DNA of 32,421 bases from an uncultured Planctomycetales bacterium (GTDB lineage: Bacteria; Planctomycetota; SZUA-567; JAFGNG01), in assembly GCA_964553265.1 (NCBI GenBank), contig CAZKKD010000002.1:1-32421 (forward strand). The letters are read 5' to 3'. The position numbers and the translations under genes were made by a program. Shown piece after piece: positions 4,016-32,421 of this stretch (within the stretch, counting starts at the first letter, position 1; each line of letters begins with the position of its first letter). The notes beneath the pieces are model-generated. The model was given only the letters and a program-made list of their open reading frames with translations. It was not told the DNA's origin and did not search any database.

Positions 4016-4280
4016 GCCGTTCTCCTTCTGCTTTCGGCCCGTTGTCGTTGTGCGGATCCGCCGCCGCCCGGCGCGCGCACACCGCGGGGCCGCACCCCGG
4101 CGAACCGTGCGCCCGTTATCCGCCTCCGTACAGCCGCTGTCAAGAATGCTATCAGAATTTCCTGGCGCGCCGGTGGTCTCGCGTGCACCCGCGCGTACCC
4201 GCCATGCGTCCCACCCCTGTTTCCCCCCGTCCCGGGCCCGTCCGACCCCGGTCCAGCAGCGGTCCGACCCGCCTGCACGC

Positions 4281-4308
4281 TTGCAAAAGGCTGGCGCTGC
4301 GGTACAGT
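4281..4308 (+). promoter_or_regulatory. Candidate sigma70-type promoter for the GH3 gene
   Basis: TTGCAA (4281-4286), a 16-nt spacer, then TACAGT (4303-4308), inside the 404-bp divergent intergenic region. Motif match only. Confidence 0.2.
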
Positions 4309-4419
4309 CTCTCCGTTGGCCCCGAGGGACCGGGCCGGCCCCGCGCCGGCGGCGCCGCCCCCGCGGGCGCCCGGGACAGCGCCCGCGCCACCCGCGCCCC
4401 CGCAAAGGGAGACCATGCC

Positions 4420-18353: not shown

Positions 18354-18383
18354 TTGACAAACAGGGATGGATCAGACTACGAT
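18354..18383 (+). promoter_or_regulatory. Candidate sigma70-type promoter for the giant-gene cluster
   Basis: A perfect TTGACA (18354-18359), an 18-nt spacer, then TACGAT (18378-18383). This would give a leader of about 180 nt before ATG 18568. Confidence 0.3.
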
Positions 18384-18567
18384 GGACAAAACAAGTCCTG
18401 TTATTGCTTTCGTTTGCGACCGAAACAACGGCAGCGATGCGCCAGCGGTCCGACGCGCATCAGCATGGCGGCAGCGGTCCGGACAGGCCGGGCGCTCTCC
18501 CGCCGCGACGCATCGACTTCACACGGGTGGCGGAACCATACCACGCACGGATAACGGAGGAGCGAAC

Positions 18568-21500
18568 ATGAGGTACTCCGAAACGGGGTTCTGGAACTGG
18601 CTGATCGCGGCTTCCCTGCTGATCCTGGCGACGGCGGGCGCGGCCGATGCCGGCGAATTCGACCAGGCGCGCGCCGCCCTGGACGCCGGCGAGTACCAGA
18701 AGGCCGAGGATCTGCTGGAGAAGGAGCTGGCGAAGGCTTCCCCCGCCACGGAGGCGCTGGAGATCAGCATGCAGGCCGCGATGAAGAGCGGCCGCGTGGT
18801 CACCGCCCAGAAGCGGGTGAGTGCGCTGATGAAGGTGAAGGGCACGAGCGACCCCGACTTCGTGCGCCAGGCCGCCGAGATTGCCCAGCGCGCCGGCGAA
18901 GAGGCCAACGCGCTGCAGCGCTACCGCGAGTACCTCCGCTCCAACCCGCCGAAGAGCCCCGAGCTCCGGGTCGCGCTGGTGAACATGCTCAAGCTCGATC
19001 CGGACGTGGCCGCCTACAAACTGCTGGTCAACCAGTTCGGCGGCGCCGAGCAGGCCTGGTTCATCGGCGCGAACCAGCTGCAGCGCCTCTTCTACGAAAA
19101 GCGGTCCGGCGAAGGGCTGGAGCTGGCCGCCTTTCTGCTGGCGAAATACCCGGACGTTGACCACGTCAACTTCGTCCACGAACAGGTGAGCGACGCCGCG
19201 CAGAACCACCGCATCACCGGCGGCGCGCGCGACCGCTTCGTCAAGCCCCTGCAGGTGCTGCTGCAGAGCAAGCCCTCGACGGTGGAGCACCTCCTCTACC
19301 TCTTCGGCGAAGCGCGCCAGCACGCGATGAAGCCCGACGAGCGCCTCAAGGCCGCGCTCAAGATCCAGTCCCTGGCGGGCACGCCCCTGCCGGCGGATGC
19401 CTTCGAAGGCTTTCACGACATGCGCGGGCTGCAGAGCGAGGCCGACCGCGTCGGCGCCGGGCAGGCATTCCTCAAGCTGGATACCATTTACAAGAACAGC
19501 GCGGACCCGGCGGATTATGCCCGCTACGTGCGCGTGATCACCGACTCGCCCGAGGTCTTCGCCATCCCCGGCAAGCCGCTCTTGAACGCCGGCGCCGTGC
19601 AGGAGATGGTCCAGGCGCTTGTCCAGAAAAACGCCGGCCAGGCGGCCCCCTACGACCACCACATCCGCCAGGTGGCCGAGCACTACATCAAGGACCCGGG
19701 CGCGAAGGTGGCGTTCCTCCAGCGCTTCGCCGCCGGCTGTCCCGCGCAGGGGCCGTCGGTCACGATGCTGATGGAGGTCATTCCCGACCAGGCCTTCCCG
19801 CCCTTCGCGGCGGCCTACGCCAAGCAGCACGGCCTGCAGGAAACCGTGATCCTGAAGGCGCAGGGCCTGCCGATCTACAAGCGTCTCGGCGACAAGGCGG
19901 CGCTGCTCCAGGCCGCGCGCGACTACGTGACCACCTACCCCGGCAGCTTCGACGCCAAGCTGGTCTCCGAAAACGTGCTGGAGAGCGACCTCCTGACGCC
20001 GGACGAGAAGCTGGGCCTCGTGGAGGATGTGCTGCGCAAGGGCGGCCCCGGCAACCCGGCGCGCAACCTGGTGGGCAAGCTCTCCCCCTACAAGGGCAAC
20101 GCCAAGTACCAGACCGTCGTGGAGCTGAGCAAGGACGAGGACGGCGGCACCGACCCGGTGATGAAGACGCACGCCCGCATCTGCGCCATCGCCCCCAACC
20201 CCCGCAGCCCCAGCAAGCGGGTCTACGACATTGCCGAAGCGTTCCTGAAGACCTACCAGGGCGCCGTCCCCGGCGGTCGTGAACAGGTCACCTCCACGGC
20301 CGACGCCACCGCGCACGACATCTTTGTCAAGCACATGGAGCACGTCTACGAGAACCCCGGCGAGATTGCCCGCTGCGCCAAACTCTGGGCGCCGCGCCTG
20401 AGCATGGGGTCGGACTGGACGCGGCTGGTGGGCCGCGTGCGGCGCCTGCGGGGCTACGAGACGCTCAACGACATCGCCCCGCACTTCCTGGCGCTGGTCG
20501 AACAGGACGCAAAGCCGGACAACGAGCTCTGGACCGAGATGTCCTTCGCCCAGACGCCCCGCGGCGCCGATCAGAAGACGTCGGTCTTCGCCAAGGTATA
20601 CGAGCGCATGGGGGCGAACAACGCCCTCCGCTACGTCCACGACATGAACCGCGGCAGCTGGCCGCCGGAGCTGTACTTCTTCGAGCTGAGCAAGGTGCTG
20701 ACGCTTCCGGACATTGCCGACGCGTCCTGGGGGCGGATCCGCTCGGTCTCCAACGAGGTGACCCGCCGCGCCCGCAACCAGAAGCCGCCCGCCGAACTGG
20801 GCCAGGGGCTCTGGGCCTACTACACCAGCACGCGCCTGTCCAAGGACCTGCGCGACCTCGGCTTCGAGGCCGAGGTGTACGCCCAGCTCGCCCGCGGCGG
20901 CAACGACCAGGCCGCCGCCGCCTGGCTGGACCAGTACCGCAAGCTGCTGGACCAGCGCACCCCGCGCGGACGGGTGCAGGCGCTGTCGAACCTGCTGGGG
21001 TACCTCCCCCGCGAGCGGAACAACCTGCAGCCCGGCCGCCAGCACCACATGGCGATCAAGGTGATCGGCCCGATGCTCGCCAGCCTCCCGGCCGACGCGC
21101 ACCGGATGGTCTACATCCGCGGCTCGCTGCTGGACGCGATCGAGCATTACCTCAAGGCCGCGCCGCCCAACGAGCCGGAGCGGAAGACCGCCGAGGCCCT
21201 GCAGGCCACCATCGGCGACGTGCTGATCAACGGTGCGTCCTGCGAAGACGGCCGCAAGGCCCTCCCCTGCGTCCGCGACGCCGCCCTCGCCGCGGCGGAG
21301 AAGCTGGACTGGGACCGGCTCGGCCGGGTCAACGAGGCCCTGCCCCGGATCCTCGGCTGGAGCAACGACTGGAACGCCAACGTCAACATCGTCGTCAAGC
21401 CCCTCGCCGACAAGCTGATGGAGAAGGGGGCGCACGAGTTTGCCTACGTCCTCTCCAGCAACCTGGAGAAGAAGACGCGCATGCCCGGCAACGTGCGCGA

Positions 21501-24500
21501 GAACCTGACCCTCATCGAGACCGAGGCCCTCGGCAAGATGGGCGTGCAGCTTATCGACGCGAACAAGGGCAGCGCCCTCTACGACCTCAGCATGGCCGAC
21601 CACTTCTACCAGCGCGAGAACGTCGCCAAGGCGTGGGAGCTCGCCCGGCCGAAGCTGAACCTCGTCGCCGACAACTGGCAGAGCCTGACCCAGCCCTTCG
21701 TGGCCTGGCTCATCGACCGGATGCGCAAGACCCGCGAAGAGGACATGATGAAGGACGCGGTCAACCTCGCCCGCACGGTGCTCCTGAAGGAGAACGAGCT
21801 CGACAAGGCGACCGCCGCGCAGATCTATCTCAGTCTCGGCGATGTGCAGCGCGACCGGCAGAACTACCAGGCCGCCCGCATCGAGTACGAGAGCCTGCGC
21901 AACAACGAGGCGCTGAGCGCGACCCAGGCCGGCTCGATGGCGAAGTTCCGCCTCGTGGAGCTCCTGATCCTGACGCAGAACTACGGCGACGCCGAGCTGC
22001 AGCTTGAGCGCCTGCTGGACGCCGCCGACCCCGAGACGCGGGCGGAAGCGTACTACTACCTGGGGCTCCTGTCCTTCAGGCAGGAAGACTTCGAGACCGC
22101 CCGCGACTACGTGGCCGAGGTGCTGAAGCTGGAGATGTACCACGCCGAAGCGCGCCTGCTGGGGGCGGAGATCCGCCTGCGCATGCGCGATCTGGGCGAC
22201 CCGGACGTGGAGCTCACCCCGGCGCTCCTGGCCGACACCATCGTGCCGACCAAGGTGCTGGTGCTCAAACTGCGCGACCCGAACCTCGGCATCGTCCGGG
22301 CCGGGAGCTTCGTTCCGGTGACGGTCTACACCACCAAGGGGCGCGACAGCGAGGAGGTGAAGCTCTTCCCCTCCACCAGCGACCCCACCCTCTTCCGCGG
22401 CGAGATCCGCACCGACCTCGGCAAGGCCACCCCCGGCAACACCAAGCTGGAGGTGAACGGCGGCGACCAGGTGATGTACATCATCAGCAAGGACTACCAG
22501 GAAGCCAACGGGCTCGACTTCCCGGCCAAGGAACTCGCCATCAAGGCCGACGCCCACCTCGCGGCCAGCAGCGGCGAAATCCTTACCCAGGAAGAGGAGG
22601 AGAAACGCGAGCTCGAGGCCCGCATGCGCCGCCTCGCCGGCGAGCAGGAGGACGAGACCGCCCTCCGCGACCGCGTGCGCGACCAGCGGACCATCCGCCC
22701 GGGCAGCCCCATCTACCTGCAGGTCATCGACTACGACCGCGATCTCGGCGACGAGACTGACACCGTCACCGTGACGCTGAAGACCAGCAGCGGCGACATC
22801 CTGGAGGGCTTCTCCCTCAAGGAGACCGAGCCGCACAGCGCCATCTTCCGCGCCCAGGCGCCCACCGGCCTGCCGCTGCCGAAGGCCGAGGCCTCCGACA
22901 CGCGCGAGGGCGGCCCGCCGCCGGCGGTGCTCATCAACACCCAGCGCAACGAGGTCTGGTCCAGCGTCCCGGACGGCGAACGCCCGAAGAGCGTCGAGGT
23001 GGACACCATGACCTCCGTCCAGGTCGAGAAGGTGGCCCTTCAGGTCGCCGACGGCACCGAGATCCGCAAGCTCCGCCTCGAAGGCTCGCTCATCGAGGGC
23101 TTCCAGACCATCGCCGCCTACCCCGAAGAGACCGGCGGCGCGACCGGGGGGCTCACCCTCACCCTCGCCGACGGGCCGAAACGCGGCGACACCGCCATCG
23201 CCAGCCTGCGCAGCTACCTCCGCGCCAACAGCGACTACAAGGCGCCCCAGCAGGTGAGCTTCTACGACCGCAACAGCACCCCCCGCCGCGGCAACCGGTG
23301 GATCACCGCCGGCGTGAGCGGCGTCTTCTGGATGCCGCAGACCGAGACGCTGGAGTTCAAGTTCCTCCAGGAGCCCAGCCCCGGCGGCATGCAGACCGCC
23401 TATTTCCTCATCGACGGGAAGACCGTCCTCGGCGGCAAGATGGACGCCTTCCGCATCAATTTCACCAAGCGCGTCACCCTGGAGAAGGGCGCGCACCGGC
23501 TGGAGCTGCTCGTGCGCGACTACCCGAGCACCAGCCGCGTGGTGGTGGGCTACAAGCAGCCGGACGGCACCTATGCGGCGCTGCCGGAGAGCTGGTTCAG
23601 CGTCACCGAGCACCCCGAACTCGCCGACGCGCTCAAGCCCAAGGCCAGCATCCAGCGTGAGGGCGACACCTTCACCGCCGTCTTCAACAAGCCGGCCCGC
23701 CTGCGCAAGCTGCGCTGGACGGTGGACGACTACGCCGGCGAAGCCGTGGCGGCCAAGACCTTCACCGTCGTCGCCGACGGCGGCAAGACCATCGTCCCCG
23801 CCGAAGACGACTTCACCAGCGGCACCCAGAACAAGACCCTCGAGATCGCCCCAGGCGACCGCATCACCGTCGCCTACGAGGACGAGAAGAACACCCGCGG
23901 CGGCGACCCCGTCCTCACCGAGAACCTCAACGCCAGCTTCTACAACGGGGCGCTGGAACTCGTGAAGGAGAACATCTACACCGACGAGCGCGGCGAACGC
24001 CGCACCGTCCTCTTCCACGCCCGCCGCTGCAAGGCCGGCGACCAGGTGCTCGTCCGCATCGAGGACTGGGACCTCGACGTCTCCGACGAACGCGAGAAGG
24101 TGCCCTTCGTCGCGCGCACGAGCTCGGGCGAAGAGCTGACCCTCGAAGCGCTCGAAACCGGCCGCGACGAGGAGATGCACGACCACGCCGGCGTCTTCGT
24201 CCAGCGGCTGCGCTTCGGCGACCAGACCGGCGGCAACACCCTGAAGGTCCAGCCCGGCGACACCATCACCGTCTCCTATCTCGACCGCGAGAACACCGAC
24301 CCCGGCATCCCGATCGACCGCGAGGCCGTCGTCGAGGAGGCGAGCGGCGAGGACGCCTTCTTCACCGTCTACCGGACCTCCATCCAGATGGTCCCCGACG
24401 AGAGCCCCGCCGCCCAGGCGCGGCTGAAGCGCCTCGCGCAGGAGCTCGGCGAGGAAGAGGCGAAGAAGGTGGAGATCCTCCGGCCGCAGATCATCGCCGC

Positions 24501-26217
24501 CCACCCGGACTACGCCGAGGGCGGCGGCGGCGCGCCGCGGGCGGCGGTGCAGGCGCCGCTCCTCCTGGAGCTGACGCACCCGGTGGAGGCGAAGCACGCC
24601 GGCAGCGCCGTCGAGGTCCACGCCGTGGCCGAGAGCGAGCTCAAGGCCGCCGAGGCCGCCGGCCGCGAGCCGACCAGCGTCAAGGTGCCGCTCATCATCC
24701 AGAGCCTGGAGTCGCTCGCGCAGCGCAAGGGCTACCCCATCCAGCTGCAGAGCAACCAGCGCCGCGGGCCGGAGGAGATGCTCACCGACGGCGTCTTCGC
24801 CGGGGTGATCCGCCTGCAGCTCGGCCAGCCCGGCGACCCGATCGACGACACGGTGGTCCGCCAGGACGCCGTCTTCGGCCCGACGGAGCGCCGCGACGCC
24901 GACGCCGACCCGGATCGCGTCCCGACCATCATCGTCAGCGGCTCCGACGTCGTGCGCCTGACCTACGTCGACGCCCAGACCCGGGAGCCCCTGGCCGAGA
25001 CCGCGGTCGACCTCCTCAGCGACGCGCGGATGGAGCTCCTCGACCGCAGCTACACCATCAACAAGGACACCATCTACCTCGGCGAGGCCTTCCACATCCG
25101 CCTGACCGACCCGGACCAGGACGTCTCCGACGAGCGCGACCGCGTCAGCGTCCGCATCCGCTCGAGCAGCGGGGACGAGGTCAACCTCGACCTGACCGAG
25201 ACCATGGGCCACACCGGCGTCTTCAGCAGCTACCTCCGGCCGGAGTACAAGACCCCCGGCCAGCAGGAGGTCAACAAGACCGACCAGACGCTGCAGGTGG
25301 ACTTCGGCGACGAGGTGACCTTCGACTTCGTCGACGAGAAGCCCCTCAGCGACACCCAGCCGATCCGGGTCACCCAGCAGGGCAAGATCCGCCTCGGCAC
25401 CGACGGGCAGGTCGCCAGCTTCTCCAAGCGCTTCAAGGACCCGGAGATGGCGGTGAAGACGCGTTTCCTCATGGCCGAGGCGCTCTTCGAGAAGGCCAAG
25501 GACCTCCGCAACCTCAAGCGCAAGGAGGAGTCCGAGGACGCCATCGTCGAGGGCAAGCGCATCCTGGAGGAGGCGCTGCGCGACTACCCGAACACCAGCC
25601 TCGCGGCGCAGGGCGAGTTCCTCCTCGCCAACCTCGCGCAGGAGAAGGAAGCCTACGACGAGGCGGTCGGCCGCTTCACCGAGGTGATCAACCGCTGGCC
25701 GGAAAGCGAGTACGCCGCCCGGTCGCAGTACCACAAGGGCATCTGCTACGAGAAGAAGGAAGAGTTTGACCAGGCGTGCGAGGAGTACGTCAAGCTCACC
25801 TATCTCTACCCGGACACGCCGCTGGTGCAGGACGCGACCGTGCGCCTGGGCAACTACTACTACACGATGAAGAAGTACGACACCGCCGGGCGCATCTTTC
25901 TCCAGTTCCAGAAGCGCTTCCCCGCGCACCGGCTGGCGGCGAAGGCGATGTTCCTCGCCGCGCAGTGCAAGATGAAGGTGGAGCAGTACAAGGCCGCGTC
26001 CGGGGTCTTCGCCGATCTCATCGAGACCTACAAGGACGACAACGACCTCCGCGCCGAGGCCATGTACTGGCAGGGCGAGTGCCTCTTCAAGGGGCGCGAC
26101 CTGATGGGCGCGTACCAGACGTTCAAGAAGCTGACCTGGGACTACCCGGCCACCAAGTGGGCGAAGATCGCCCGCGGCCGCCTGACCGAAGAAGTCTTCG
26201 CGCGCATCGAGGACTGA
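18568..26217 (+). CDS. Giant exported protein (2,549 aa): signal peptide, long all-alpha TPR/HEAT-like N-terminal region, central beta-rich region with acidic repeat modules and a PA14-like segment, C-terminal YbgF/BamD-type TPR array
   Basis: Frame of ORF 18367..26217 (+). The start is at MRYSETGFWNWLIAASLLILATAGAADA|GEF (ATG 18568), with GGAGGA 6 nt upstream. TPR-like stretches include AEAYYYLGLLSFRQEDFETARDYVAEVLKL. The C-terminus reads EYAARSQYHKGICYEKKEEFDQACEEYVKLTYLYPDTPLVQDATVRLGNYYY...AEAMYWQGECLFKGRDLMGAYQTFKKLTWDYPATKWA. Amino-acid composition is realistic, whereas the 2,602-aa antisense ORF is not. Confidence 0.9.
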   Translation: MRYSETGFWNWLIAASLLILATAGAADAGEFDQARAALDAGEYQKAEDLLEKELAKASPATEALEISMQAAMKSGRVVTAQKRVSALMKVKGTSDPDFVRQAAEIAQRAGEEANALQRYREYLRSNPPKSPELRVALVNMLKLDPDVAAYKLLVNQFGGAEQAWFIGANQLQRLFYEKRSGEGLELAAFLLAKYPDVDHVNFVHEQVSDAAQNHRITGGARDRFVKPLQVLLQSKPSTVEHLLYLFGEARQHAMKPDERLKAALKIQSLAGTPLPADAFEGFHDMRGLQSEADRVGAGQAFLKLDTIYKNSADPADYARYVRVITDSPEVFAIPGKPLLNAGAVQEMVQALVQKNAGQAAPYDHHIRQVAEHYIKDPGAKVAFLQRFAAGCPAQGPSVTMLMEVIPDQAFPPFAAAYAKQHGLQETVILKAQGLPIYKRLGDKAALLQAARDYVTTYPGSFDAKLVSENVLESDLLTPDEKLGLVEDVLRKGGPGNPARNLVGKLSPYKGNAKYQTVVELSKDEDGGTDPVMKTHARICAIAPNPRSPSKRVYDIAEAFLKTYQGAVPGGREQVTSTADATAHDIFVKHMEHVYENPGEIARCAKLWAPRLSMGSDWTRLVGRVRRLRGYETLNDIAPHFLALVEQDAKPDNELWTEMSFAQTPRGADQKTSVFAKVYERMGANNALRYVHDMNRGSWPPELYFFELSKVLTLPDIADASWGRIRSVSNEVTRRARNQKPPAELGQGLWAYYTSTRLSKDLRDLGFEAEVYAQLARGGNDQAAAAWLDQYRKLLDQRTPRGRVQALSNLLGYLPRERNNLQPGRQHHMAIKVIGPMLASLPADAHRMVYIRGSLLDAIEHYLKAAPPNEPERKTAEALQATIGDVLINGASCEDGRKALPCVRDAALAAAEKLDWDRLGRVNEALPRILGWSNDWNANVNIVVKPLADKLMEKGAHEFAYVLSSNLEKKTRMPGNVRENLTLIETEALGKMGVQLIDANKGSALYDLSMADHFYQRENVAKAWELARPKLNLVADNWQSLTQPFVAWLIDRMRKTREEDMMKDAVNLARTVLLKENELDKATAAQIYLSLGDVQRDRQNYQAARIEYESLRNNEALSATQAGSMAKFRLVELLILTQNYGDAELQLERLLDAADPETRAEAYYYLGLLSFRQEDFETARDYVAEVLKLEMYHAEARLLGAEIRLRMRDLGDPDVELTPALLADTIVPTKVLVLKLRDPNLGIVRAGSFVPVTVYTTKGRDSEEVKLFPSTSDPTLFRGEIRTDLGKATPGNTKLEVNGGDQVMYIISKDYQEANGLDFPAKELAIKADAHLAASSGEILTQEEEEKRELEARMRRLAGEQEDETALRDRVRDQRTIRPGSPIYLQVIDYDRDLGDETDTVTVTLKTSSGDILEGFSLKETEPHSAIFRAQAPTGLPLPKAEASDTREGGPPPAVLINTQRNEVWSSVPDGERPKSVEVDTMTSVQVEKVALQVADGTEIRKLRLEGSLIEGFQTIAAYPEETGGATGGLTLTLADGPKRGDTAIASLRSYLRANSDYKAPQQVSFYDRNSTPRRGNRWITAGVSGVFWMPQTETLEFKFLQEPSPGGMQTAYFLIDGKTVLGGKMDAFRINFTKRVTLEKGAHRLELLVRDYPSTSRVVVGYKQPDGTYAALPESWFSVTEHPELADALKPKASIQREGDTFTAVFNKPARLRKLRWTVDDYAGEAVAAKTFTVVADGGKTIVPAEDDFTSGTQNKTLEIAPGDRITVAYEDEKNTRGGDPVLTENLNASFYNGALELVKENIYTDERGERRTVLFHARRCKAGDQVLVRIEDWDLDVSDEREKVPFVARTSSGEELTLEALETGRDEEMHDHAGVFVQRLRFGDQTGGNTLKVQPGDTITVSYLDRENTDPGIPIDREAVVEEASGEDAFFTVYRTSIQMVPDESPAAQARLKRLAQELGEEEAKKVEILRPQIIAAHPDYAEGGGGAPRAAVQAPLLLELTHPVEAKHAGSAVEVHAVAESELKAAEAAGREPTSVKVPLIIQSLESLAQRKGYPIQLQSNQRRGPEEMLTDGVFAGVIRLQLGQPGDPIDDTVVRQDAVFGPTERRDADADPDRVPTIIVSGSDVVRLTYVDAQTREPLAETAVDLLSDARMELLDRSYTINKDTIYLGEAFHIRLTDPDQDVSDERDRVSVRIRSSSGDEVNLDLTETMGHTGVFSSYLRPEYKTPGQQEVNKTDQTLQVDFGDEVTFDFVDEKPLSDTQPIRVTQQGKIRLGTDGQVASFSKRFKDPEMAVKTRFLMAEALFEKAKDLRNLKRKEESEDAIVEGKRILEEALRDYPNTSLAAQGEFLLANLAQEKEAYDEAVGRFTEVINRWPESEYAARSQYHKGICYEKKEEFDQACEEYVKLTYLYPDTPLVQDATVRLGNYYYTMKKYDTAGRIFLQFQKRFPAHRLAAKAMFLAAQCKMKVEQYKAASGVFADLIETYKDDNDLRAEAMYWQGECLFKGRDLMGAYQTFKKLTWDYPATKWAKIARGRLTEEVFARIED

Positions 26218-26249: not shown

Positions 26250-27854
26250 ATGACACGGACACCGACACGCACCCTTCATCGCCTCTGCCTGGCGGCGGTG
26301 GCCTGGGCCCTCTGCTTGGGGCTCGCGGCGCCGGCGGCGCGGGCGGACTGGAACTGGAAGCTCACCGGCGACCAGATCCAGCTGCTCACCGCGTTCGAGG
26401 AGCAGCAGTACAAGAAGGCGGAAAAGCTCGTCGATTCCCGCAAATTCGACGCCGCCGCCGCCGAGTTCGAGAAGTTCCGCGTCCGCTTCGAAGACTCCGA
26501 CCTCATCCCCTACGTCCTCTTCCTGCAGGCGCACAGCCTCCACAAGGCGGCCAAGCGCAACAATGCCATCCGCATGTACCAGCAGGTGATCGATTACTTC
26601 GGCTATGACATCAACGCCGCCGCCCCCGCCAAGTACTGGCAGGGCAAGGCCCACCTCGACAACGGCGACACCCTGAAGGGCCTGAAGGTGATGCAGCAGA
26701 TGGTGGAGCACCCGGACTACAAGTACCACCCCCTCGCCGCCGGCGCGCTGCGGTACCTCGCCGACAACCACTGGACCAAGGAAGAGTACGAGCCGGCCAT
26801 CCGCTACTACAAGCAGATCTGGGACGACTTCTACCGCGAGAACAAGCAGGCCGTCCAGCACGCCGAGAACATGATCATCGGCTGGTACGTCTGGCAGAAG
26901 GACTACGACGGCTTCGAGGACTGGTACGTCGGCGACGACGTCCGCGTCGGCAAGACCCGCCTGCAGATGGAGGCGGCCAAGCGCGCCTGGGACGTGGCGC
27001 ACCACGGCTTCGCCGGCGACTGGGGCGGCCGCTACCCCAACACCAGGATCCGCGAGAAGCGCGACGACATGGAGGCGTTCTACAAGTACTTCCAGCGCCG
27101 CCGCGAAGAGTTCGAGCGCTCGGCCAACATCTGGGACTGGTACGACCGCGCCATCCAGTTCACCGTCTACCGCCACGGCGGCCCGAACAACACGTACCGC
27201 GACGAGCTGATCGACGAGGCGCTCGCCTACATCGCCAAGCAGTACGACGGCGAACCGGAGCAGGCGAACAAGAAATACGTCTGGCTCGGCGACCGCCTGC
27301 GCGACATCAAGCAGTTCGAGAAGGCGAAGTTCTGCTACAGCAAGCTCACCGACCCCAACCTCTACGCCTGGAAGAGCTACGAGATGACCGGCCGCTACGA
27401 GGGCAAGTGGCAGGACGCGGTCAAGTTCCTCGAGCAGATCGAGGCCAGCGGCAACGAGGAGTGGGTGATGCGCGCCCAGCGCGAACACGCCAACGTCTTC
27501 AAGGACCGCCTCGGCAAGTACGACGAGGCGATCAAGCTCTACCGCATCATCAACGACCCGCCCTGGAGCATCTGGCAGATCGTCGACGCGCACCTGCGCG
27601 CCAAGCAGCACGAACAGGCCGTCACCCGCCTGCGCGAGATGGAAAACTTCTTCCCGAAGGAGGCCTCCCAGGCGGCCTACAAGATCGCGAAGATCAAGGA
27701 AGGCAACGGCGACAAGGACGGCGCCATCGCCAGCTGGCGGCGTATCCTCAAGGTCTACCCCGGCAGCCGCGAAGCCAGCCGCTCGCACCAGGACCTGGAG
27801 CGCTACGGCATCGAGACCGGCGGCGGCGTGATGGATGAAGCGGACCTCAAGTAA
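26250..27854 (+). CDS. Exported all-alpha TPR-like protein (534 aa)
   Basis: Frame of ORF 25776..27854 (+). The start is at MTRTPTRTLHRLCLAAVAWALCLGLAAPAARA|DWNW (ATG 26250), with AGGAGGAGGA upstream, 32 nt after the giant gene stop. It contains Trp/Tyr-rich helical repeats (YWQGKAHLDNGDTLKGLKVMQQMVEHPDY..., AAYKIAKIKEGNGDKDGAIASWRRILKVYPGSREA). Confidence 0.85.
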   Translation: MTRTPTRTLHRLCLAAVAWALCLGLAAPAARADWNWKLTGDQIQLLTAFEEQQYKKAEKLVDSRKFDAAAAEFEKFRVRFEDSDLIPYVLFLQAHSLHKAAKRNNAIRMYQQVIDYFGYDINAAAPAKYWQGKAHLDNGDTLKGLKVMQQMVEHPDYKYHPLAAGALRYLADNHWTKEEYEPAIRYYKQIWDDFYRENKQAVQHAENMIIGWYVWQKDYDGFEDWYVGDDVRVGKTRLQMEAAKRAWDVAHHGFAGDWGGRYPNTRIREKRDDMEAFYKYFQRRREEFERSANIWDWYDRAIQFTVYRHGGPNNTYRDELIDEALAYIAKQYDGEPEQANKKYVWLGDRLRDIKQFEKAKFCYSKLTDPNLYAWKSYEMTGRYEGKWQDAVKFLEQIEASGNEEWVMRAQREHANVFKDRLGKYDEAIKLYRIINDPPWSIWQIVDAHLRAKQHEQAVTRLREMENFFPKEASQAAYKIAKIKEGNGDKDGAIASWRRILKVYPGSREASRSHQDLERYGIETGGGVMDEADLK

Positions 27855-27913: not shown

Positions 27914-30190
27914 ATGACGAAGCAACCGTTCTTCTCCGCGCGTTCCTGGCGGCCCGCCCTGGCGGCGGCGCTGCTGGTCGGCCTCCTGTCGAGCGGGCTG
28001 GCCCACGCGGCCGCCGGCCCCGGCGGCCGGCAGCGGCTGACCGAGGAGCAGAAGCAGGAGTTCCAGGCCAACGACATGATCCGCAAGGGGATGGACTACC
28101 TGGAGCAGAACCTCGAGGAGCAGGGCATCAAGCTCATCCGCGACGTGCCGCGGATGTACCCGAAGACCGAGGCCCGCTTCAAGGCCTACCTGGAGCTCGG
28201 CAAGTACCTCGTCGACAAGCGCCGCTTCGAGGAGGCGATCAAGAACCTCCGCGAGGTCAACGCCAGCGAGGACGCCGACCAGCGCGCCGAGGCCATCTAC
28301 CAGATCGGCATCTCCTACTACGGCCTCAACCAGTTCAGCCAGGCGTTCGCCTCGCTCCAGAAGGTGATCGACGAGTACCCCTGGAGCGTCTACGCCAACG
28401 AGGCGTACTACTACATCGGGCTCTGCCACTTCAAGCTCGAACGCTGGGCCAAGGCGATCGACGCCCTCCGCATGGTGGGCACCAGCGTCCCGCCCAAGGA
28501 GAAACTCGCCGAGGCCGCCGACGGCAAGTACCGCGCCGAGGCCGGGCAGCGCTTCTACATCCGCGTCTTCGACAAGGACCTCATCGTCCTGCCGCAGCTC
28601 GGCGAAGACCTGCCGGTGGATCTCGCAACGAAGAACGGCGACTCCGAGCGCATCATCCTGGAGAAGCTCGACCGCCAGGGCGAGTACTACATCGGTTCGC
28701 TCCCCAGCGGCCCGGGCAAGCCCAAGACCGGCGACGGCATCCTGCAGGTCGCCAGCGGGGATATCGTCAACGTCACCTACACGGACCGCAATACCGCCGA
28801 GGGCGAGCGCGACCGCAAGCTGCTCGCCCAGGCGCAGCTGGTCTCCACCGCGTCGGGCGGCTTCACCGACGGCGCCTTCAAGGAGTACGTCCAGGGCATT
28901 TATCTCGACGACGACTGCTTCATCCGCGTCCGCGATCTCGACCGCGACATCAGCGACGACCGCGACCGCCTGACCATCACCCTCACCACCGAATACGATC
29001 CCGACGAGGAGCGCCGCCAGGCCGAGGGCGAGGACGCCGCACCCGCCATCACCCGGGGGGTCGACCTGGACGCCGCGCCCGACTACGAGCAACGCGACCG
29101 CATCGAGATCGAGTTGGAGGAGACGGGCCCGCACACCGGCGTCTTCACCGGGGTCACCACCGTCAAGCCCATCACCGAGGGCGTGGAGGTGAGTTCCGGC
29201 GACACGGTGCTCCACGCGCGGCTCTCCGATCGACTGAAGCTGGAGTACATCGACGAGCTGCACATGCTCGACTACGAGCCCCGCCGCGTGGAGGTCACCT
29301 CCGCGCTGGTGACCGGCAGCCGCACCGACGTCCAGGTCACCAACAACATCGCCGACAACCTCGATCACGAGGCGCGCAAGAACCTGATCGAGTCGAAGCT
29401 CTATCTCGAGCTCGGCCGCATCTTCAAGGACGTTGGCCTCGACCAGAAGGCGGGCGAAAAGGCGCAGGAAGGCATCGACCGCGTCGACAGGATCATCGCC
29501 AATTACCTGAAGGATCTCCCCCTCGACCGCACCCTCGTCGAGGAGGCCTTCAGCGTCAAGTGGGAGCTTCTGCTGGTGCAGGACCGCCTCTCCGAGGCCA
29601 TCCGCGTCTGCCACACCCTCACCCAGGTCTTCCCGAAGACCAGCCTCGTCGACAAGGCCCTCTTCACCATCGGCAAGGCGAAGATGGAGGAGGACGGCCG
29701 CGACAGCGGGCGCGAGGCCATCGGCATCTTCACCAGCATCCTCCGCCTGCCGGAGAGCGACTACAAGGCCGAGGCGCAGTACCTCATCGGCCAGATCCAC
29801 GAAAAGGCCGCCATGGCCCGCATGGCCCAGACCGGCCAGCGCGACCGCCAGGCCCTCGGCCAGGCGCTCACCGCCTACCAGAAGTGCGCCGACACCTACC
29901 CCGACAGCCCGATGGCCGGGGAGGCGCTGGACAAGATCGCCAACTTCTACATCGAGGACAAGCAGTACCGCCGCGCGGTGGAGTTGTTCGAGCGCATCTT
30001 CCTCGAGCACCCGCACGCGGAGTGGCTGGACAAGATGCTCCTGAAGTGGGGCATCGCCGCCTACCGGATGAAGAATTTCCAGATGGCGCGCGAGAAGTTC
30101 GACCAGATCGTCGTCGAATACCCCTCCAGCCCCGAAGCGGCCAAGGCGCGGAAGTTCCTGCAGGTGGTGGAACGCAAGCTCGGCGGGTGA
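27914..30190 (+). CDS. Exported TPR / acidic beta-module / TPR protein (758 aa), a smaller architectural paralogue of the giant
   Basis: ORF 27914..30190 (+). AAGGAG lies 7 nt upstream. The signal peptide is MTKQPFFSARSWRPALAAALLVGLLSSGLAHA|AA. The N-terminal TPRs include AEAIYQIGISYYGLNQFSQAFASLQKVIDEYPWSVYANEAYYYIGLCHF. The modules are FYIRVFDKD... and CFIRVRDLDRDISDDRDRLTITL...IELEETGPHTGVF. The C-terminal TPRs include AEAQYLIGQIHEK... and PMAGEALDKIANFYIEDKQY. Confidence 0.88.
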   Translation: MTKQPFFSARSWRPALAAALLVGLLSSGLAHAAAGPGGRQRLTEEQKQEFQANDMIRKGMDYLEQNLEEQGIKLIRDVPRMYPKTEARFKAYLELGKYLVDKRRFEEAIKNLREVNASEDADQRAEAIYQIGISYYGLNQFSQAFASLQKVIDEYPWSVYANEAYYYIGLCHFKLERWAKAIDALRMVGTSVPPKEKLAEAADGKYRAEAGQRFYIRVFDKDLIVLPQLGEDLPVDLATKNGDSERIILEKLDRQGEYYIGSLPSGPGKPKTGDGILQVASGDIVNVTYTDRNTAEGERDRKLLAQAQLVSTASGGFTDGAFKEYVQGIYLDDDCFIRVRDLDRDISDDRDRLTITLTTEYDPDEERRQAEGEDAAPAITRGVDLDAAPDYEQRDRIEIELEETGPHTGVFTGVTTVKPITEGVEVSSGDTVLHARLSDRLKLEYIDELHMLDYEPRRVEVTSALVTGSRTDVQVTNNIADNLDHEARKNLIESKLYLELGRIFKDVGLDQKAGEKAQEGIDRVDRIIANYLKDLPLDRTLVEEAFSVKWELLLVQDRLSEAIRVCHTLTQVFPKTSLVDKALFTIGKAKMEEDGRDSGREAIGIFTSILRLPESDYKAEAQYLIGQIHEKAAMARMAQTGQRDRQALGQALTAYQKCADTYPDSPMAGEALDKIANFYIEDKQYRRAVELFERIFLEHPHAEWLDKMLLKWGIAAYRMKNFQMAREKFDQIVVEYPSSPEAAKARKFLQVVERKLGG

Positions 30191-30359: not shown

Positions 30360-31010
30360 ATGTTACAGTACATCCTCGACGGCGGTTTCGTGATGTTTCC
30401 CCTCATGGTGCTCTCGGTGCTCGCCGTGGCCATCATCGTCGACCGCAGCCGCGCGTTCCGCCTCGCCCGGGCCGACAGCTCGGCCCTGCGCAAGGAGGTG
30501 ATCCGCCGGCTGGAGGAGGGCGAGATCGACGCCGCCATGCAGGCCTGCCAGAAGACCAAGGGCCCCGTCGCGGCCGTCCTCCTGGTGGGGCTGCACAAGT
30601 TCCGCCAGCTCGCCGCCCGCGGCCGCAAGCTGGCCGACATCGAGGAGGGCGTCAACAAGACCATGGCCGACTACGCCCCCCACGTCATCGAGGCCCTGGA
30701 GAAGCGCCTCAACCTGCTGGTGATGATCGGCAGCGTCGCGCCGCTCCTGGGCATGACGGGGACGGTCACCGGCATGATTGCCGCCTTCGCCGAGATGCGC
30801 GAGTCCGGCGTCCAGGGCGAGGCCGTCGCCGGCGGCATTTCCGAGGCGCTCATCACCACCGCCACCGGCCTCATCGTCGCCATGCCGGCGGTGGTGGCCT
30901 ACAACGTCTTCGCCAAGCGCGTCGACCGCTACGTGCTGGAGATCGAGGAGATGGCCACCAACCTCATCGACTTCATCACGCTGCAGCACAGTGACGGGGA
31001 CGAGGAATAG
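30360..31010 (+). CDS. exbB: MotA/TolQ/ExbB-family proton channel subunit (216 aa)
   Basis: Frame of ORF 30294..31010 (+). The start is preferred at MLQYILDGGFVMFPLMVLSVLAVAIIVDR (ATG 30360, GGAG 5 nt upstream). The conserved core is IGSVAPLLGMTGTVTGMIAAF...GGISEALITTATGLIVAMPAVVAYNVF. The stop is TAG. Confidence 0.9.
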   Translation: MLQYILDGGFVMFPLMVLSVLAVAIIVDRSRAFRLARADSSALRKEVIRRLEEGEIDAAMQACQKTKGPVAAVLLVGLHKFRQLAARGRKLADIEEGVNKTMADYAPHVIEALEKRLNLLVMIGSVAPLLGMTGTVTGMIAAFAEMRESGVQGEAVAGGISEALITTATGLIVAMPAVVAYNVFAKRVDRYVLEIEEMATNLIDFITLQHSDGDEE

Positions 31011-31043: not shown

Positions 31044-31475
31044 ATGCGACTGAGCCGAAAGGATCGCGCCGACGCCGACATCGACGTCGGGTCGTTCTCC
31101 GACATCGCGTTCCTGCTCATCATCTTCTTCATTCTCACCTGCACCTTCCTCCGGCCCGCGGGCGAAGAGGTGCGGGTGCCGTCCGGCAAGTCCGACCCGG
31201 AACAGGACAGCAGCGAAAAGCAGCCCACCGTCAACGTCAACGCCGACGGCATCCTCTGGAATGGCGAGGTGGCGATGGATCTTGAGCGGCTCCAGGAGAA
31301 GCCCAACTCGCTCAAGCTCCACCAGGCCGACAAGGACAAGCGCTCCGTCATCCTCGACTGCGCCGACGAGGTGTCCTACCAGACCTACTTCGACGTCTGC
31401 ATGGCCATCACCAAGGCCGGCGGCGTGGTCGCCCTCATGGAGCACGACGAGGGCGGAGGAGGCGAGGGCCCATGA
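31044..31475 (+). CDS. exbD: ExbD/TolR-family subunit 1 (143 aa)
   Basis: ORF 31044..31475 (+), with a GAAGGAG RBS. The N-terminal TM carries the conserved Asp: DVGSFSDIAFLLIIFFILTCTF. A periplasmic domain and an acidic/Gly tail follow. Confidence 0.88.
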   Translation: MRLSRKDRADADIDVGSFSDIAFLLIIFFILTCTFLRPAGEEVRVPSGKSDPEQDSSEKQPTVNVNADGILWNGEVAMDLERLQEKPNSLKLHQADKDKRSVILDCADEVSYQTYFDVCMAITKAGGVVALMEHDEGGGGEGP

Positions 31476-31879
31476 AGGTCGACCGCAAGCGCAAGTACAA
31501 GCTGATGGTCCCCATCGCGTCGATGGGCGACATCGCGTTTCTGCTCATCATCTTCTTCGTCCTCACCAGCCAGTTCATGCAGGAGCAGAACATCGAGGCC
31601 AAGCCGCCCGAAAACCCCACCATCGAGGAGATGGAGCCCATCCCCATCAGCCTCATCGTCGACGAGGACGGGCAGATCTACCTCAACGGCAACCCCATCC
31701 CCGTCCAGATGGTCGAGCCGGGCGTCAGCGTGCTCGTCCAGGACGCGGAGGACAAGCGCGTGATGGTGAAGATCCACAAGGACCTCCCGCACAAGCTGTA
31801 CGGCGAGGTGATGAAGGGCCTGAGCGAGGCGGGCGCGCGCATCGTCCTCGTCGGCCGGAAGACCGAGGCGAAGCTCTGA
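31472..31879 (+). CDS. exbD: ExbD/TolR-family subunit 2 (135 aa)
   Basis: ORF 31472..31879 (+). It has an ATGA start/stop overlap with subunit 1. The TM is PIASMGDIAFLLIIFFVLTSQF. The periplasmic part is clearly diverged from subunit 1. Confidence 0.88.
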   Translation: MKVDRKRKYKLMVPIASMGDIAFLLIIFFVLTSQFMQEQNIEAKPPENPTIEEMEPIPISLIVDEDGQIYLNGNPIPVQMVEPGVSVLVQDAEDKRVMVKIHKDLPHKLYGEVMKGLSEAGARIVLVGRKTEAKL

Positions 31880-31913: not shown

Positions 31914-31976
31914 CGCGCGGGAACGCCAGACCGATCGCGACATCCTGTTGCGGAAGCGGAAGAACGGGGAGCCGAG

Positions 31977-32421
31977 ATGAGCGAAAAAATTGTCGTCGAA
32001 TGCACCTGCGGAAAGCGCTACAAGGCCACCGCCGACAAGATCGGCAAGAAGATGAAGTGCAAGGCCTGCGGCGAACCCTTCGAGATCCAGCCCGTCGAGG
32101 ACGACGAGGCGCCCGCCGCCGCGGCGAACGAGAACGCGGACGAGCAGGAGAACACCGCCGCCCCCGACGAGTACGCCCCCGACCTCCCGGCCTTCAAGCC
32201 GGCCAAGCGGCTCAAGCTCGCCGTCGACACGCCCAAGGTGCACCCCGACACCCTCATGGCCGAGATCGCCCGCCCCGCCATGGGCCGGAGCCTCGGGCTC
32301 TCGGTGGCCATCCATGCCGTCCTCCTCGGCGCCACCTCGGTCGGCTTCATGAACGGTTACGCCAGCCACGCCAGCAAGTACGGCACCTGGCACCTGCCCA
32401 CCATCCGCGAGAAGAAGGCCC
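31977..32421 (+). CDS. Zinc-ribbon protein with a TonB-type (S-x3-H) transmembrane anchor; the C-terminus lies beyond the window
   Basis: Not in the ORF track (no stop). Hand translation from ATG 31977 (GGGGAG 5 nt upstream) gives MSEKIVVECTCGKRYKATADKIGKKMKCKACGEPFEIQPVEDDEAPAAAANENADEQENTAAPDEYAPDLPAFKPAKRLKLAVDTPKVHPDTLMAEIARPAMGRSLGLSVAIHAVLLGATSVGFMNGYASHASKYGTWHLPTIREKKA... C9-x-C11...C28-xx-C31 forms an MJ0042-like Zn ribbon. LGLSVAIHAVLLGA mirrors the E. coli TonB anchor LLSVCIHGAVVAGLL. Confidence 0.7.
   Translation, partial: MSEKIVVECTCGKRYKATADKIGKKMKCKACGEPFEIQPVEDDEAPAAAANENADEQENTAAPDEYAPDLPAFKPAKRLKLAVDTPKVHPDTLMAEIARPAMGRSLGLSVAIHAVLLGATSVGFMNGYASHASKYGTWHLPTIREKKA

What the first reader, a model, noticed from the sequence alone, without database searches (positions are those of the whole stretch)
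31977..32421. TonB-type membrane anchor preceded by a cytoplasmic zinc ribbon and an acidic linker
Seen in the sequence: CxC(9,11)...CxxC(28,31), an acidic/Pro-rich linker of about 70 aa, then LGLSVAIHAVLLGATSVGF.

Established knowledge: the S-x3-H motif in the single TM helix of TonB (LLSVCIHGAVVAGLL in E. coli) is the signature contact with ExbB/ExbD. Canonical TonB has only a very short cytoplasmic N-terminus.

Inference: a zinc-ribbon cytoplasmic domain on a TonB-like transducer implies regulation or recruitment from the cytoplasm, as proposed for the ZnR domain of M. xanthus GltJ. That is atypical for nutrient-uptake TonB proteins.
Basis: partly seen in the sequence, partly recalled or inferred. 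Interest (0 to 1): 0.6.

Follow-up and report, generated by a model that had tools for sequence, protein, structure and literature searches.

The report
Headless TonB/TolA-like anchor with zinc ribbon
This gene encodes a small inner-membrane protein built like the energy-transmitting arm of the bacterial Ton/Tol motors, but it lacks their globular tip and carries a cytoplasmic zinc-binding module related to one that switches a gliding motor on and off, which suggests an unstudied envelope machine controlled from inside the cell.

Summary
ORF 31977-32421 encodes C-x-C/C-x2-C, an acidic linker and a helix with S-x3-H. The contig end cuts it. Contig C363 and a 92%-identical 242-aa database protein give the full length.

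There is no TonB_C or TolA_C domain. After the membrane helix come a 48-residue Lys/Glu/Ala helix, a disordered acidic stretch and a conserved C-terminal peptide (E-x-S-x-ERP…LD…L). The genome shows no TonB_C domain and no TonB-dependent receptor.

The protein belongs to an unannotated family (111 representatives analysed). Members always follow TolQ-like/2×TolR-like genes, with CpoB-type TPR giants upstream and a DUF4159 membrane protein downstream.

About one third of members carry the zinc ribbon, which needs at least 7 gains or losses on the tree. Its best match among solved structures is the GltJ zinc ribbon (E 1.5e-7). The same module sits on S-x3-H-anchored vWA-headed transducers, in this genome and in 21 of 50 homologues.

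Best reading: a headless, motor-docked Tol/Ton-type transducer or adaptor with an optional cytoplasmic control module. No function has been tested. I rate it a new variant of a known kind, interest 0.6.

The parts
31966..31971 (+). Shine-Dalgarno-like GGGGAG, 5 nt before the ATG
   Evidence: Read directly from the sequence. No promoter or terminator was found in the 97-nt spacer, and its hairpin is no more stable than shuffles, z -0.8. Co-transcription with the motor genes is therefore likely.
31977..32421 (+). First 148 codons of a 242-codon gene for the headless TonB/TolA-like protein. The remainder lies on contig C363.
   Evidence: P0001 is 242 aa, 92% identical, 100% coverage.
31977..32096 (+). 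Cytoplasmic zinc ribbon, residues 1-40. Cys codons are at 32001-32003, 32007-32009, 32058-32060 and 32067-32069.
   Evidence: The four Cys are invariant. AF2 gives four strands with pLDDT 81-93. Best PDB sequence hit is the GltJ/AgmX ZnR 7ZOK, E 1.5e-7. Best fold hit is the ZitP zinc finger, which is weak.
32097..32243 (+). Acidic, Ala/Pro-rich disordered linker, residues 41-89
   Evidence: Composition. pLDDT is below 50 at residues 44-55. Length and sequence vary among orthologues.
32244..32258 (+). Cytoplasmic juxtamembrane motif P-D-x-L-M, residues 90-94
   Evidence: P90 and L93 are kept in at least 90% of 111 members. It forms a short helix at 90-95 in AF2.
32280..32381 (+). Transmembrane helix, residues 102-135, with S109 (32301-32303), H113 (32313-32315) and T120-S121 (32334-32339) on one face
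   Evidence: pLDDT 92-97. H113 is kept in at least 90% and S121 is invariant. The position-109 residue is S in 78% and A in 19% of an 88-sequence subset picked by a motif pattern that required P90, H113 and S121.
32379..32399 (+). Periplasmic post-helix box Y-G-T-x-x-x-P, residues 135-141. Candidate contact for the TolR/ExbD periplasmic domains (inference).
   Evidence: Y is kept in 74% and P in 84% of the 88-sequence subset. G136 and L140 are invariant in close orthologues.
31472..31879 (+). ExbD/TolR-like subunit 2, overlapping subunit 1 by 4 nt
   Evidence: Pfam ExbD 2.6e-21. The TM Asp is present.
31044..31475 (+). ExbD/TolR-like subunit 1
   Evidence: Pfam ExbD 4.9e-18. The TM Asp is present.
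30360..31010 (+). ExbB/TolQ-like stator subunit
   Evidence: Pfam MotA_ExbB 9e-30. Best NCBIfam model is TolQ at 133 bits, below its cut-off.
27914..30190 (+). Exported 758-aa TPR protein with a CpoB/YbgF-type TPR domain at its C-terminus
   Evidence: TIGR02795 scores 114 bits against a cut-off of 90.1, and BamD scores 100 bits. Pfam gives TPR/YfiO.
26250..27854 (+). Exported 534-aa TPR protein
   Evidence: Pfam TPR families. TIGR02795 scores 59.6 bits, below cut-off. Start codon.
18367..26217 (+). Giant 2616-aa TPR protein with a CpoB-type TPR domain at its C-terminus
   Evidence: TIGR02795 scores 103 bits at residues 2500-2606. Pfam hits.

Best explanation
The ORF is the 5' part of a 242-aa bitopic inner-membrane protein of a Planctomycetota MAG. 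It belongs to an unannotated family of 'headless' TonB/TolA-like proteins.

Domain order:
1. An optional GltJ/ZitP-type zinc ribbon.
2. A disordered acidic linker.
3. A P-D-x-L-M juxtamembrane motif.
4. One membrane helix presenting S-x3-H...T-S on one face.
5. A Y-G-T..P box.
6. A Lys/Glu/Ala-rich helix of about 50 residues, like a short TolA domain II.
7. A disordered acidic stretch.
8. A conserved C-terminal peptide, E-x-S-x-E-R-P-x2-S-x3-L-D-x3-L.

Proposed mechanism (inferred, not shown):
- The helix docks on the rim of a TolQ-like pentamer that holds a TolR-like heterodimer, as the TonB and TolA helices do.
- Proton flow moves the helical arm.
- The C-terminal peptide, instead of a globular head, latches onto a periplasmic partner. 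The candidates are the CpoB-type TPR domains of the co-encoded giants (E. coli TolA binds CpoB) or the DUF4159 domain of the always-adjacent downstream membrane protein.
- The zinc ribbon and linker give the cytoplasm a handle to recruit or gate the arm, as in GltJ.
For: Shown here:
- The full-length model and the absence of any globular C-terminal domain.
- Conservation of H113, S121, P90, L93 and P216 across 111 representatives and a clear family consensus.
- The family is found after ExbB-ExbD-ExbD in every locus with enough upstream sequence: C2, C23, L004, L006, L021, L024 and L027. In L025 the simple ORF caller listed only ExbB and one ExbD.
- A DUF4159 membrane-protein gene follows in 8 of 8 loci.
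- TPR giants lie upstream, with CpoB-type TPR domains above the curated cut-off.
- A complete paralogous cluster lies in the same genome.
- The genome has 7 MotA/ExbB stators but no TonB_C domain and no TBDT barrel.
- The ZnR is homologous to the GltJ ZnR.
- The same ZnR sits on an S-x3-H-anchored vWA protein beside another stator in this genome. It is also on 21 of 50 of that protein's homologues, and two of those that were checked lie next to ExbB-ExbD-ExbD-TPR.

From the literature:
- SHLS-helix docking of TonB/TolA on their motors, and PVC loci of the form 'TPR - tolQ-like - two tolR-like - transducer' (PMC12204202).
- The GltJ ZnR works as a regulatory switch (PMC11135422).
Against: - No multimer modelling or experiment links the helix to the motor. 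The S-x3-H similarity is at motif level only, and no HMM relates the helix to TonB or TolA.
- The spacing of the distal Ser differs: H+8 here against H+11 in TonB/TolA.
- The downstream DUF4159 protein has its own (A/S)-x3-H helix plus a globular domain in 5 of 6 sequences. It could be the real transducer, leaving this protein as an accessory.
- The partner of the C-terminal peptide is unknown.
- The family is patchy: 17 of 401 genomes sampled in the phylum.
- The 242-aa model joins two strain variants.
Confidence: 0.62

Rival explanations
1. It is an accessory or regulatory subunit rather than a force transducer. It occupies a TonB-type docking site on the stator, or pairs with the DUF4159 protein, to assemble, localise or gate the machine. 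The DUF4159 membrane protein, which has its own (A/S)-x3-H helix, Lys-rich linker and globular head, would then be the real force-transmitting arm.
For: - A DUF4159 gene follows immediately in 8 of 8 loci, overlapping by 4 nt in L024 and abutting in L027.
- Its last helix has an invariant His in 5 of 6 sequences, plus an invariant PKGSG box.
- The published PVC transducers all carry a globular head (PMC12204202).
- A headless arm has no obvious way to grip a target.
Against: - The family keeps a long rigid helix and a strongly conserved C-terminal peptide. P216 is kept in at least 90% of the 111 members, and E205 in 77% and L229 in 77% of the 88-sequence subset. This conservation is hard to explain for a mere plug.
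- The His of the DUF4159 helix is missing in one homologue.
- An ExbB pentamer has room for more than one docked helix, so the two roles do not exclude each other.
Confidence: 0.25
2. It is a canonical TonB for nutrient uptake, or a TolA of a Tol-Pal system, whose C-terminal domain is simply missing from the window.
For: The S-x3-H helix, the exbB-exbD-exbD neighbourhood and the best motor hits being TolQ/TolR.
Against: - The complete protein ends after 242 aa with no TonB_C or TolA_C domain.
- None of the 111 relatives has more than 175 residues after the helix His.
- The genome has no TonB_C and no TBDT barrel.
- There is no tolB or pal in the locus. The only TolB_N-like segment lies elsewhere, inside a TPR giant.
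Confidence: 0.03
3. It is a membrane-anchored signalling protein, such as an anti-sigma-like or receptor-like protein with a zinc-binding cytoplasmic domain, and is unrelated to the motor. The S-x3-H would then be coincidental.
For: The ZnR is promiscuous. It occurs at the N-terminus of many unrelated membrane proteins of the phylum.
Against: - Two thirds of the family lack the ZnR yet keep the helix, the coil, the tail and the motor synteny.
- There is no sigma factor or kinase in the locus.
- H113 and S121 are conserved across the family.
Confidence: 0.05

Closest known systems
TolA (Tol-Pal system), domains I and II
   Same: It has a single N-terminal helix with Ser and His four residues apart. 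It is followed by an Ala/Lys/Glu-rich alpha-helix. It is encoded right after TolQ-like and TolR-like genes, and CpoB/YbgF-type TPR proteins lie in the locus. CpoB is a known TolA partner in E. coli (established knowledge).
   Different: There is no domain III (TolA_C). There is no tolB or pal in the locus. There are two different TolR-like subunits. The helix is short, about 50 residues. It ends in a conserved C-terminal peptide and has an optional cytoplasmic zinc ribbon. The distal Ser lies at H+8, not H+11.
GltJ (AgmX) of the Myxococcus xanthus Agl-Glt gliding machine
   Same: It has a homologous N-terminal zinc ribbon (7ZOK, E 1.5e-7) followed by a flexible linker. It is a single-pass TonB-like protein. 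Its motor is made of one TolQ-like and two TolR-like subunits, and its partners are rich in TPR repeats. The genome also encodes an MglA-like GTPase and two Roadblock-domain (MglB-type) proteins.
   Different: It has no GYF domain and no TonB_C domain. The cytoplasmic part is about 100 residues, against 377 in GltJ. No Glt outer-membrane components were identified, and no motility is known.
[quoted passage not shown]
   Same: It has the same kind of locus (TPR - tolQ-like - two tolR-like - transducer). It has a helix with a conserved His and belongs to the same phyla. A vWA-headed member with the same ZnR exists in this genome on contig C18.
   Different: This family has no globular head at all. 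The paper does not mention zinc ribbons or headless proteins: 'zinc' occurs 0 times in it.
TonB (ExbB-ExbD-TonB)
   Same: It has the S-x3-H membrane helix and sits next to exbB/exbD-type genes.
   Different: It has no Pro-rich spacer and no TonB_C domain. The genome has no TonB-dependent receptors. The cytoplasmic extension is long.

Membership tests
TonB | C-terminal TonB_C domain (PF03544) | tested here: not met
   No Pfam hit on the window piece, the C363 piece or full-length P0001. AF2 shows only helices and disorder after the TM helix. There are 0 TonB_C hits in the whole genome, while the controls ring.
TonB | N-terminal membrane helix with S-x3-H, encoded with ExbB/ExbD | tested here: met
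   S109 and H113 are present, and H is kept in at least 90% of 111 members. ExbB-ExbD-ExbD lies directly upstream.
TonB | TonB-dependent outer-membrane receptors as clients | tested here: not met
   There are 0 PF00593 hits in the genome, which is 78% complete.
TonB | Pro-rich rigid spacer | tested here: not met
   The periplasmic part is a Lys/Glu/Ala helix at residues 140-187, with no proline between P141 and P216.
TolA | Globular domain III (TolA_C) that binds TolB | tested here: not met
   No Pfam or NCBIfam hit and no globular fold in AF2.
TolA | Helical Ala/Lys/Glu-rich domain II | tested here: met
   Helix 140-187 has pLDDT 97-98. Its composition is A13 E10 K7 Q6 R4 out of 48 residues. 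It is much shorter than in E. coli TolA.
TolA | tolQ-tolR-tolA-tolB-pal-cpoB gene context | tested here: inconclusive
   TolQ-like and TolR-like genes and CpoB-type TPR domains are present. tolB and pal are absent from the locus. The one TolB_N-like segment lies elsewhere.
GltJ-type transducer | N-terminal zinc ribbon of the GltJ/ZitP type | tested here: met
   The ZnR profile against the PDB gives 7ZOK as top hit, E 1.5e-7, covering both knuckles. Foldseek's best hit is ZitP 2NB9, which is weak at E 0.62.
GltJ-type transducer | GYF domain and TonB_C domain | tested here: not met
   No Pfam hits. The linker is disordered.
vWA-headed PVC force transducers (PMC12204202) | Globular vWA C-terminal domain | tested here: not met
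   No VWA hit in this protein. A VWA domain is present in the separate C18 protein.
vWA-headed PVC force transducers (PMC12204202) | Docking of the His-bearing helix on the motor rim | not testable with these tools
   This needs multimer structure prediction or experiment. Only single chains could be folded here.

The most novel reading that the evidence does not exclude
The zinc ribbon is a general cytoplasmic 'clutch' for 5:2 proton-motor arms in Planctomycetota. It would be attached at will to headless, vWA-headed and (in myxobacteria) TonB_C-headed transducers. Through it, a small-GTPase/Roadblock polarity module (MglA/MglB-like, present in this genome) or another cytoplasmic factor would decide where and when an envelope motor engages. 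The headless arm plus its C-terminal peptide, the CpoB-type TPR giants and the DUF4159 protein would then form a third class of motor-driven envelope machine beside Ton and Tol-Pal, standing in for them in bacteria that lack both.
Probability: 0.12. Interest if true: 0.85.

Novelty: new variant of a known kind. Interest (0 to 1): 0.6.

Why it matters
Ton and Tol-Pal are the textbook ways of carrying inner-membrane energy to the outer envelope, and both use an arm that ends in a globular head.

This family shows a conserved arm that ends in a short peptide. It occurs in bacteria whose genome shows no TonB domain and no TonB-dependent receptor, although the genome holds seven stators.

The optional GltJ-type zinc ribbon recurs on two structurally different arm classes. 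That gives a concrete, testable route by which the cytoplasm could regulate such motors outside myxobacterial gliding.

It also gives a first functional context for DUF4159 and for the giant TPR proteins of Planctomycetota.

Tried and rejected
- Pfam and NCBIfam scans of the protein and three relatives gave only insignificant, low-complexity hits.
- The scan of named genomes (genome contigs) found only two loci, and both shared just the zinc ribbon. One of them did serve to assign the phylum: G104 = G401 = 'Planctomycetota bacterium OFTM393'.
- The first phylum-wide search with the 3-sequence profile was dominated by ZnR-only hits on unrelated proteins. It was repeated with a ZnR-free profile.
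- Loci L023 (G173) and L026 (G016) turned out to be unrelated ZnR proteins.
- The hairpin in the upstream spacer is not exceptional, and there is no terminator or promoter.
- Foldseek of the whole model found nothing beyond weak zinc-finger matches.
- The anti-sigma or signalling reading and the canonical TonB/TolA reading were considered and rejected (see rivals).
- I could not inspect model coordinates to see whether linker residues 71-89 pack on the ZnR.

Full report
**1. Observation**

The ORF listing gives an ORF at 31977..32420 (+), starting at ATG and open at the 3' end, with 148 codons. A GGGGAG site lies 5 nt upstream of the ATG.

The translation reads MSEKIVVECTCGKRYKATADKIGKKMKCKACGEPFEIQPV. 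It is followed by a 49-residue linker with 12 Asp/Glu, 6 Pro and 12 Ala. Then come PDTLM and LGLSVAIHAVLLGATSVGF.

The 97-nt spacer before the gene has no promoter-like or terminator-like site, and its hairpin is no more stable than shuffled sequence, z -0.8. The gene is most simply co-transcribed with the genes upstream.

**2. Completing the gene**

The window is an entire contig (C2) of a 538-contig MAG that is 78% complete.

- Contig C363, read on its reverse strand, begins with 151 nt that are 96% identical to the last 151 nt of C2. It continues the frame for 94 more codons to a stop.
- The joined 242-aa model matches a 242-aa metagenomic protein, P0001, at 92% identity over 100% of its length. 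Two more orthologues are P0002 (257 aa, 51%) and P0003 (270 aa, 39%).
- The gene after the stop on C363 encodes a 783-aa polytopic membrane protein ending in DUF4159, Pfam 1.3e-31.
- A second, complete copy of the whole cluster lies on contig C23: TPR - TPR - ExbB - ExbD - ExbD - 197-aa homologue - DUF4159 protein. This independently shows that C363 is the true continuation of C2.

The 242-aa sequence is nevertheless a join of two strain variants.

**3. What the full protein looks like**

No Pfam or NCBIfam model matches it significantly. AlphaFold2 with a 111-sequence alignment gives mean pLDDT 80 and this layout:

| Residues | Feature |
|---|---|
| 5-8, 14-17, 25-27, 34-36 | Four-stranded zinc ribbon, pLDDT 81-93 |
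| 44-55 | Disordered linker, pLDDT below 50 |
| 90-95 | Short helix |
| 102-135 | Membrane helix, pLDDT 92-97 |
| 140-187 | Helix, pLDDT 97-98; composition A13 E10 K7 Q6 R4 |
| 188-242 | No regular structure; 15 Asp/Glu against 3 Lys/Arg |

There is no globular C-terminal domain, no Pro-rich spacer and no GYF domain. Foldseek against the PDB finds nothing except weak zinc-finger matches. The best is the ZitP zinc finger 2NB9 (E 0.62, probability 0.87, TM-score 0.58 on the target).

**4. The family**

An exhaustive profile search of 1.84 billion representatives returned 553 proteins at E ≤ 1e-3 and 60 at E ≤ 1e-10. Of the best 150, 111 match a core HMM from its start.

They are small. The median distance from the helix His to the C-terminus is 114 residues, range 87-175. 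None therefore has room for a large head.

The consensus, from an 88-sequence subset, is:
dPDeLM..i.rS.lgktl.iSlv.HvvLIGlTSiGf...c.kYGt..P – Lys/Glu/Ala-rich stretch – ks.iek...EvS.ERP..s...LDd.ddL(end).

In the unbiased 111-row alignment, S121 is invariant. P90, L93, H113 and P216 are kept in at least 90%. In the 88-sequence subset, which was picked by a motif pattern that required P90, H113 and S121, the position-109 Ser is S in 78% and A in 19%.

S109, H113, L116/117 and T120/S121 fall on one helical face. This resembles the SHLS face of TonB and TolA (PMC12204202), but the distal Ser lies at H+8 instead of H+11.

The extreme C-terminus is a conserved short peptide rather than a domain.

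**5. Genomic context**

In the window, the gene follows:

- a TolQ/ExbB-like gene, MotA_ExbB 9e-30;
- two overlapping ExbD/TolR-like genes, 4.9e-18 and 2.6e-21, both with the membrane Asp;
- two exported TPR proteins and a 2616-aa TPR giant.

NCBIfam places CpoB/YbgF-type TPR domains, above the curated cut-off, at the C-termini of the 758-aa protein (114 bits) and of the giant (103 bits; cut-off 90.1). It scores the motor best as TolQ/TolR, though below their cut-offs.

The same order, giant - TPR - (TPR) - ExbB - ExbD - ExbD - member - DUF4159 protein, is seen in several other places:

- L004 (orthologue P0002) and L024 show the full order.
- L025 shows it too, although the simple ORF caller listed neither the second ExbD nor the member itself there.
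- L027 shows it with the giant but without the separate TPR genes.
- L006 (P0001) and L021 (the ZnR-less P0030) show the motor part.

The downstream gene is the DUF4159 membrane protein in 8 of 8 loci where it is visible. In L024 it overlaps the member's gene by 4 nt.

**6. Genome-wide setting**

The genome has seven MotA/ExbB-type genes. It has no TonB_C domain and no TonB-dependent receptor barrel, while positive-control genomes ring.

Only the two paralogous copies of this family exist in it. The one TolB_N-like segment lies inside a TPR giant on contig C15, beside another stator. No canonical Tol-Pal locus was seen.

The genome is Planctomycetota. Handle G104, marked 'same phylum', has the same size and hit coordinate as the named record behind L007/G401, 'Planctomycetota bacterium OFTM393'.

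With a ZnR-free profile, the family is found in 17 of 401 evenly sampled genomes of the phylum (12 of 288 genera). It is found in none of 12 same-order relatives. Its distribution is therefore patchy.

**7. The zinc ribbon**

A profile of 20 family zinc ribbons, searched against all PDB sequences, puts 7ZOK first. That entry is the zinc ribbon of 'adventurous gliding motility protein X' (AgmX, i.e. GltJ). The match has E 1.5e-7 and aligns both Cys knuckles.

In the family, the module is optional:

- 38 of 111 representatives carry it, and a few carry two copies.
- On a tree of the core region, its presence needs 15 changes by parsimony. At least 7 of these are forced by well-supported branches. 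Label shuffles give 31.6 ± 2.2, and 0 of 500 shuffles are as low.
- The target sits in a supported clade of six ZnR-bearing representatives.

The module is also promiscuous in the phylum, typically at the N-terminus of membrane proteins.

**8. The zinc ribbon recurs on other motor arms**

Ten ORFs of this genome carry the module. Two of the other nine lie beside other stators.

- On C18, a 441-aa protein has the ZnR, then a helix 'SVGVH', then a vWA domain (VWA_3 40 bits, VWA 25.5 bits, both above cut-off). It is followed by ExbB, ExbD and a 958-aa TPR-like protein.
- On C350, a double-ZnR polytopic protein lies divergent to an ExbB-ExbD pair.

The chance that a given ORF falls within 3 kb of one of seven stators in 4.15 Mb is about 1%. 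Two of nine is therefore unexpected; my binomial estimate is about 4e-3.

Among 50 homologues of the C18 protein, 41 keep a W-x-x-S-x3-H helix and 21 have an N-terminal ZnR. Two ZnR-bearing ones that were checked lie directly upstream of ExbB-ExbD-ExbD-TPR.

These are the 'vWA force transducers' loci described in PMC12204202 (section 8). That paper does not mention zinc ribbons; the word 'zinc' occurs 0 times in it.

The GltJ-type ribbon is thus found on three arm classes: TonB_C-headed (GltJ), vWA-headed and headless.

**9. How it most likely works**

Shown: the architecture, its conservation, the synteny and the ZnR homology.

Inferred:
- N-in/C-out topology. The Zn-Cys4 module needs the cytoplasm, and the Ser→His order matches TonB.
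- Docking of the helix on the TolQ-like pentamer.
- The Y-G-T..P box as a contact for the TolR-like periplasmic domains.
- Transmission of motion along the 48-residue helix. By my arithmetic this spans about 70 Å, and the 55-residue tail adds reach.
- Capture of a partner by the C-terminal peptide.

The best partner candidates are the CpoB-type TPR domains, because E. coli CpoB binds TolA (established knowledge), and the DUF4159 domain, because its gene is always adjacent.

In GltJ, the ZnR binds the linker, is released by MglA-GTP and then recruits MglB (PMC11135422). This genome encodes an MglA-like GTPase and two Roadblock-domain genes on contig C483. A similar input is therefore possible but untested.

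The main rival is that the DUF4159 protein is the true arm and this protein its adaptor. The last helix of the DUF4159 protein carries (A/S)-x3-H in 5 of 6 sequences. It is followed by an invariant PKGSG box, a Lys-rich linker and the globular domain.

**10. Comparison and novelty**

It works like TolA/TonB but fails their membership tests: it has no TonB_C or TolA_C domain, no client receptors, and no tolB-pal. It shares the ZnR with GltJ but lacks the GYF and TonB_C domains. It shares its locus type with the vWA-headed PVC transducers but lacks a head.

Full-text searches found no paper on DUF4159 function. They found none that links zinc ribbons to Tol/Ton-type motors in Planctomycetes apart from the GltJ work.

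Earlier notes of this scan had already flagged the operon type in other genomes, including a transducer that ends in a peptide motif. I treated them as leads and reached the same architecture independently.

New here are:
- the demonstration that the ZnR is GltJ-type;
- its optional, repeatedly gained or lost status in the headless family;
- its recurrence on vWA-headed arms.

**Verdict:** new variant of a known kind; interest 0.6.

Noticed in passing
own genome contig C18:1376-7121 (minus strand): A second motor cluster. It encodes a 441-aa protein with a basic N-terminus, the same ZnR, an 'SVGVH' helix and a vWA domain. This is followed by ExbB, a single ExbD and a 958-aa TPR-like protein. 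It is a ZnR-bearing version of the published vWA transducer class.
   Followed up: partly
own genome contig C350:336-3484: A 581-aa polytopic membrane protein with two N-terminal ZnR modules lies divergent to an ExbB-ExbD pair on the other strand. Function unknown.
   Followed up: partly
own genome contig C363 (reverse strand 631-2976) and C23:11755-13500; L024, L025, L027: The last membrane helix of the DUF4159 membrane protein carries (A/S)-x3-H in 5 of 6 sequences. It is followed by an invariant PKGSG box, a Lys-rich linker and the DUF4159 domain. This makes it a second TonB-like arm candidate in the same operon.
   Followed up: partly
own genome contig C483:2-1714 (minus strand): Three adjacent genes: a TPR-Roadblock fusion, a Roadblock/LC7 (MglB-like) protein and an MglA-like small GTPase ([28 protein letters not shown]...). 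The contig is only 3 kb, so their neighbourhood is unknown.
   Followed up: no
own genome contig C15:13720-22208: A 1409-aa TPR protein with an embedded TolB_N-like segment (58 bits), interrupted by a masked run. Next to it are a stator gene and a vWA protein of more than 1030 aa whose C-terminal region holds an 'SLSVH' membrane helix.
   Followed up: no
L026 (G016:C121), 9843-10321: The same ZnR module is fused to the N-terminus of what looks like a MoxR-type AAA+ ATPase, next to another MoxR-like gene.
   Followed up: no
window 31472-31475: The two ExbD/TolR-like genes overlap by 4 nt (ATGA), and both keep the membrane Asp. This is consistent with a fixed heterodimer, as in AglQ/AglS.
   Followed up: partly
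window 963-6597: GH2-family and GH3-family glycoside hydrolase genes lie upstream of the cluster on opposite strands. An N-terminal-methylation (prepilin-type) protein lies at 15175-16074.
   Followed up: no
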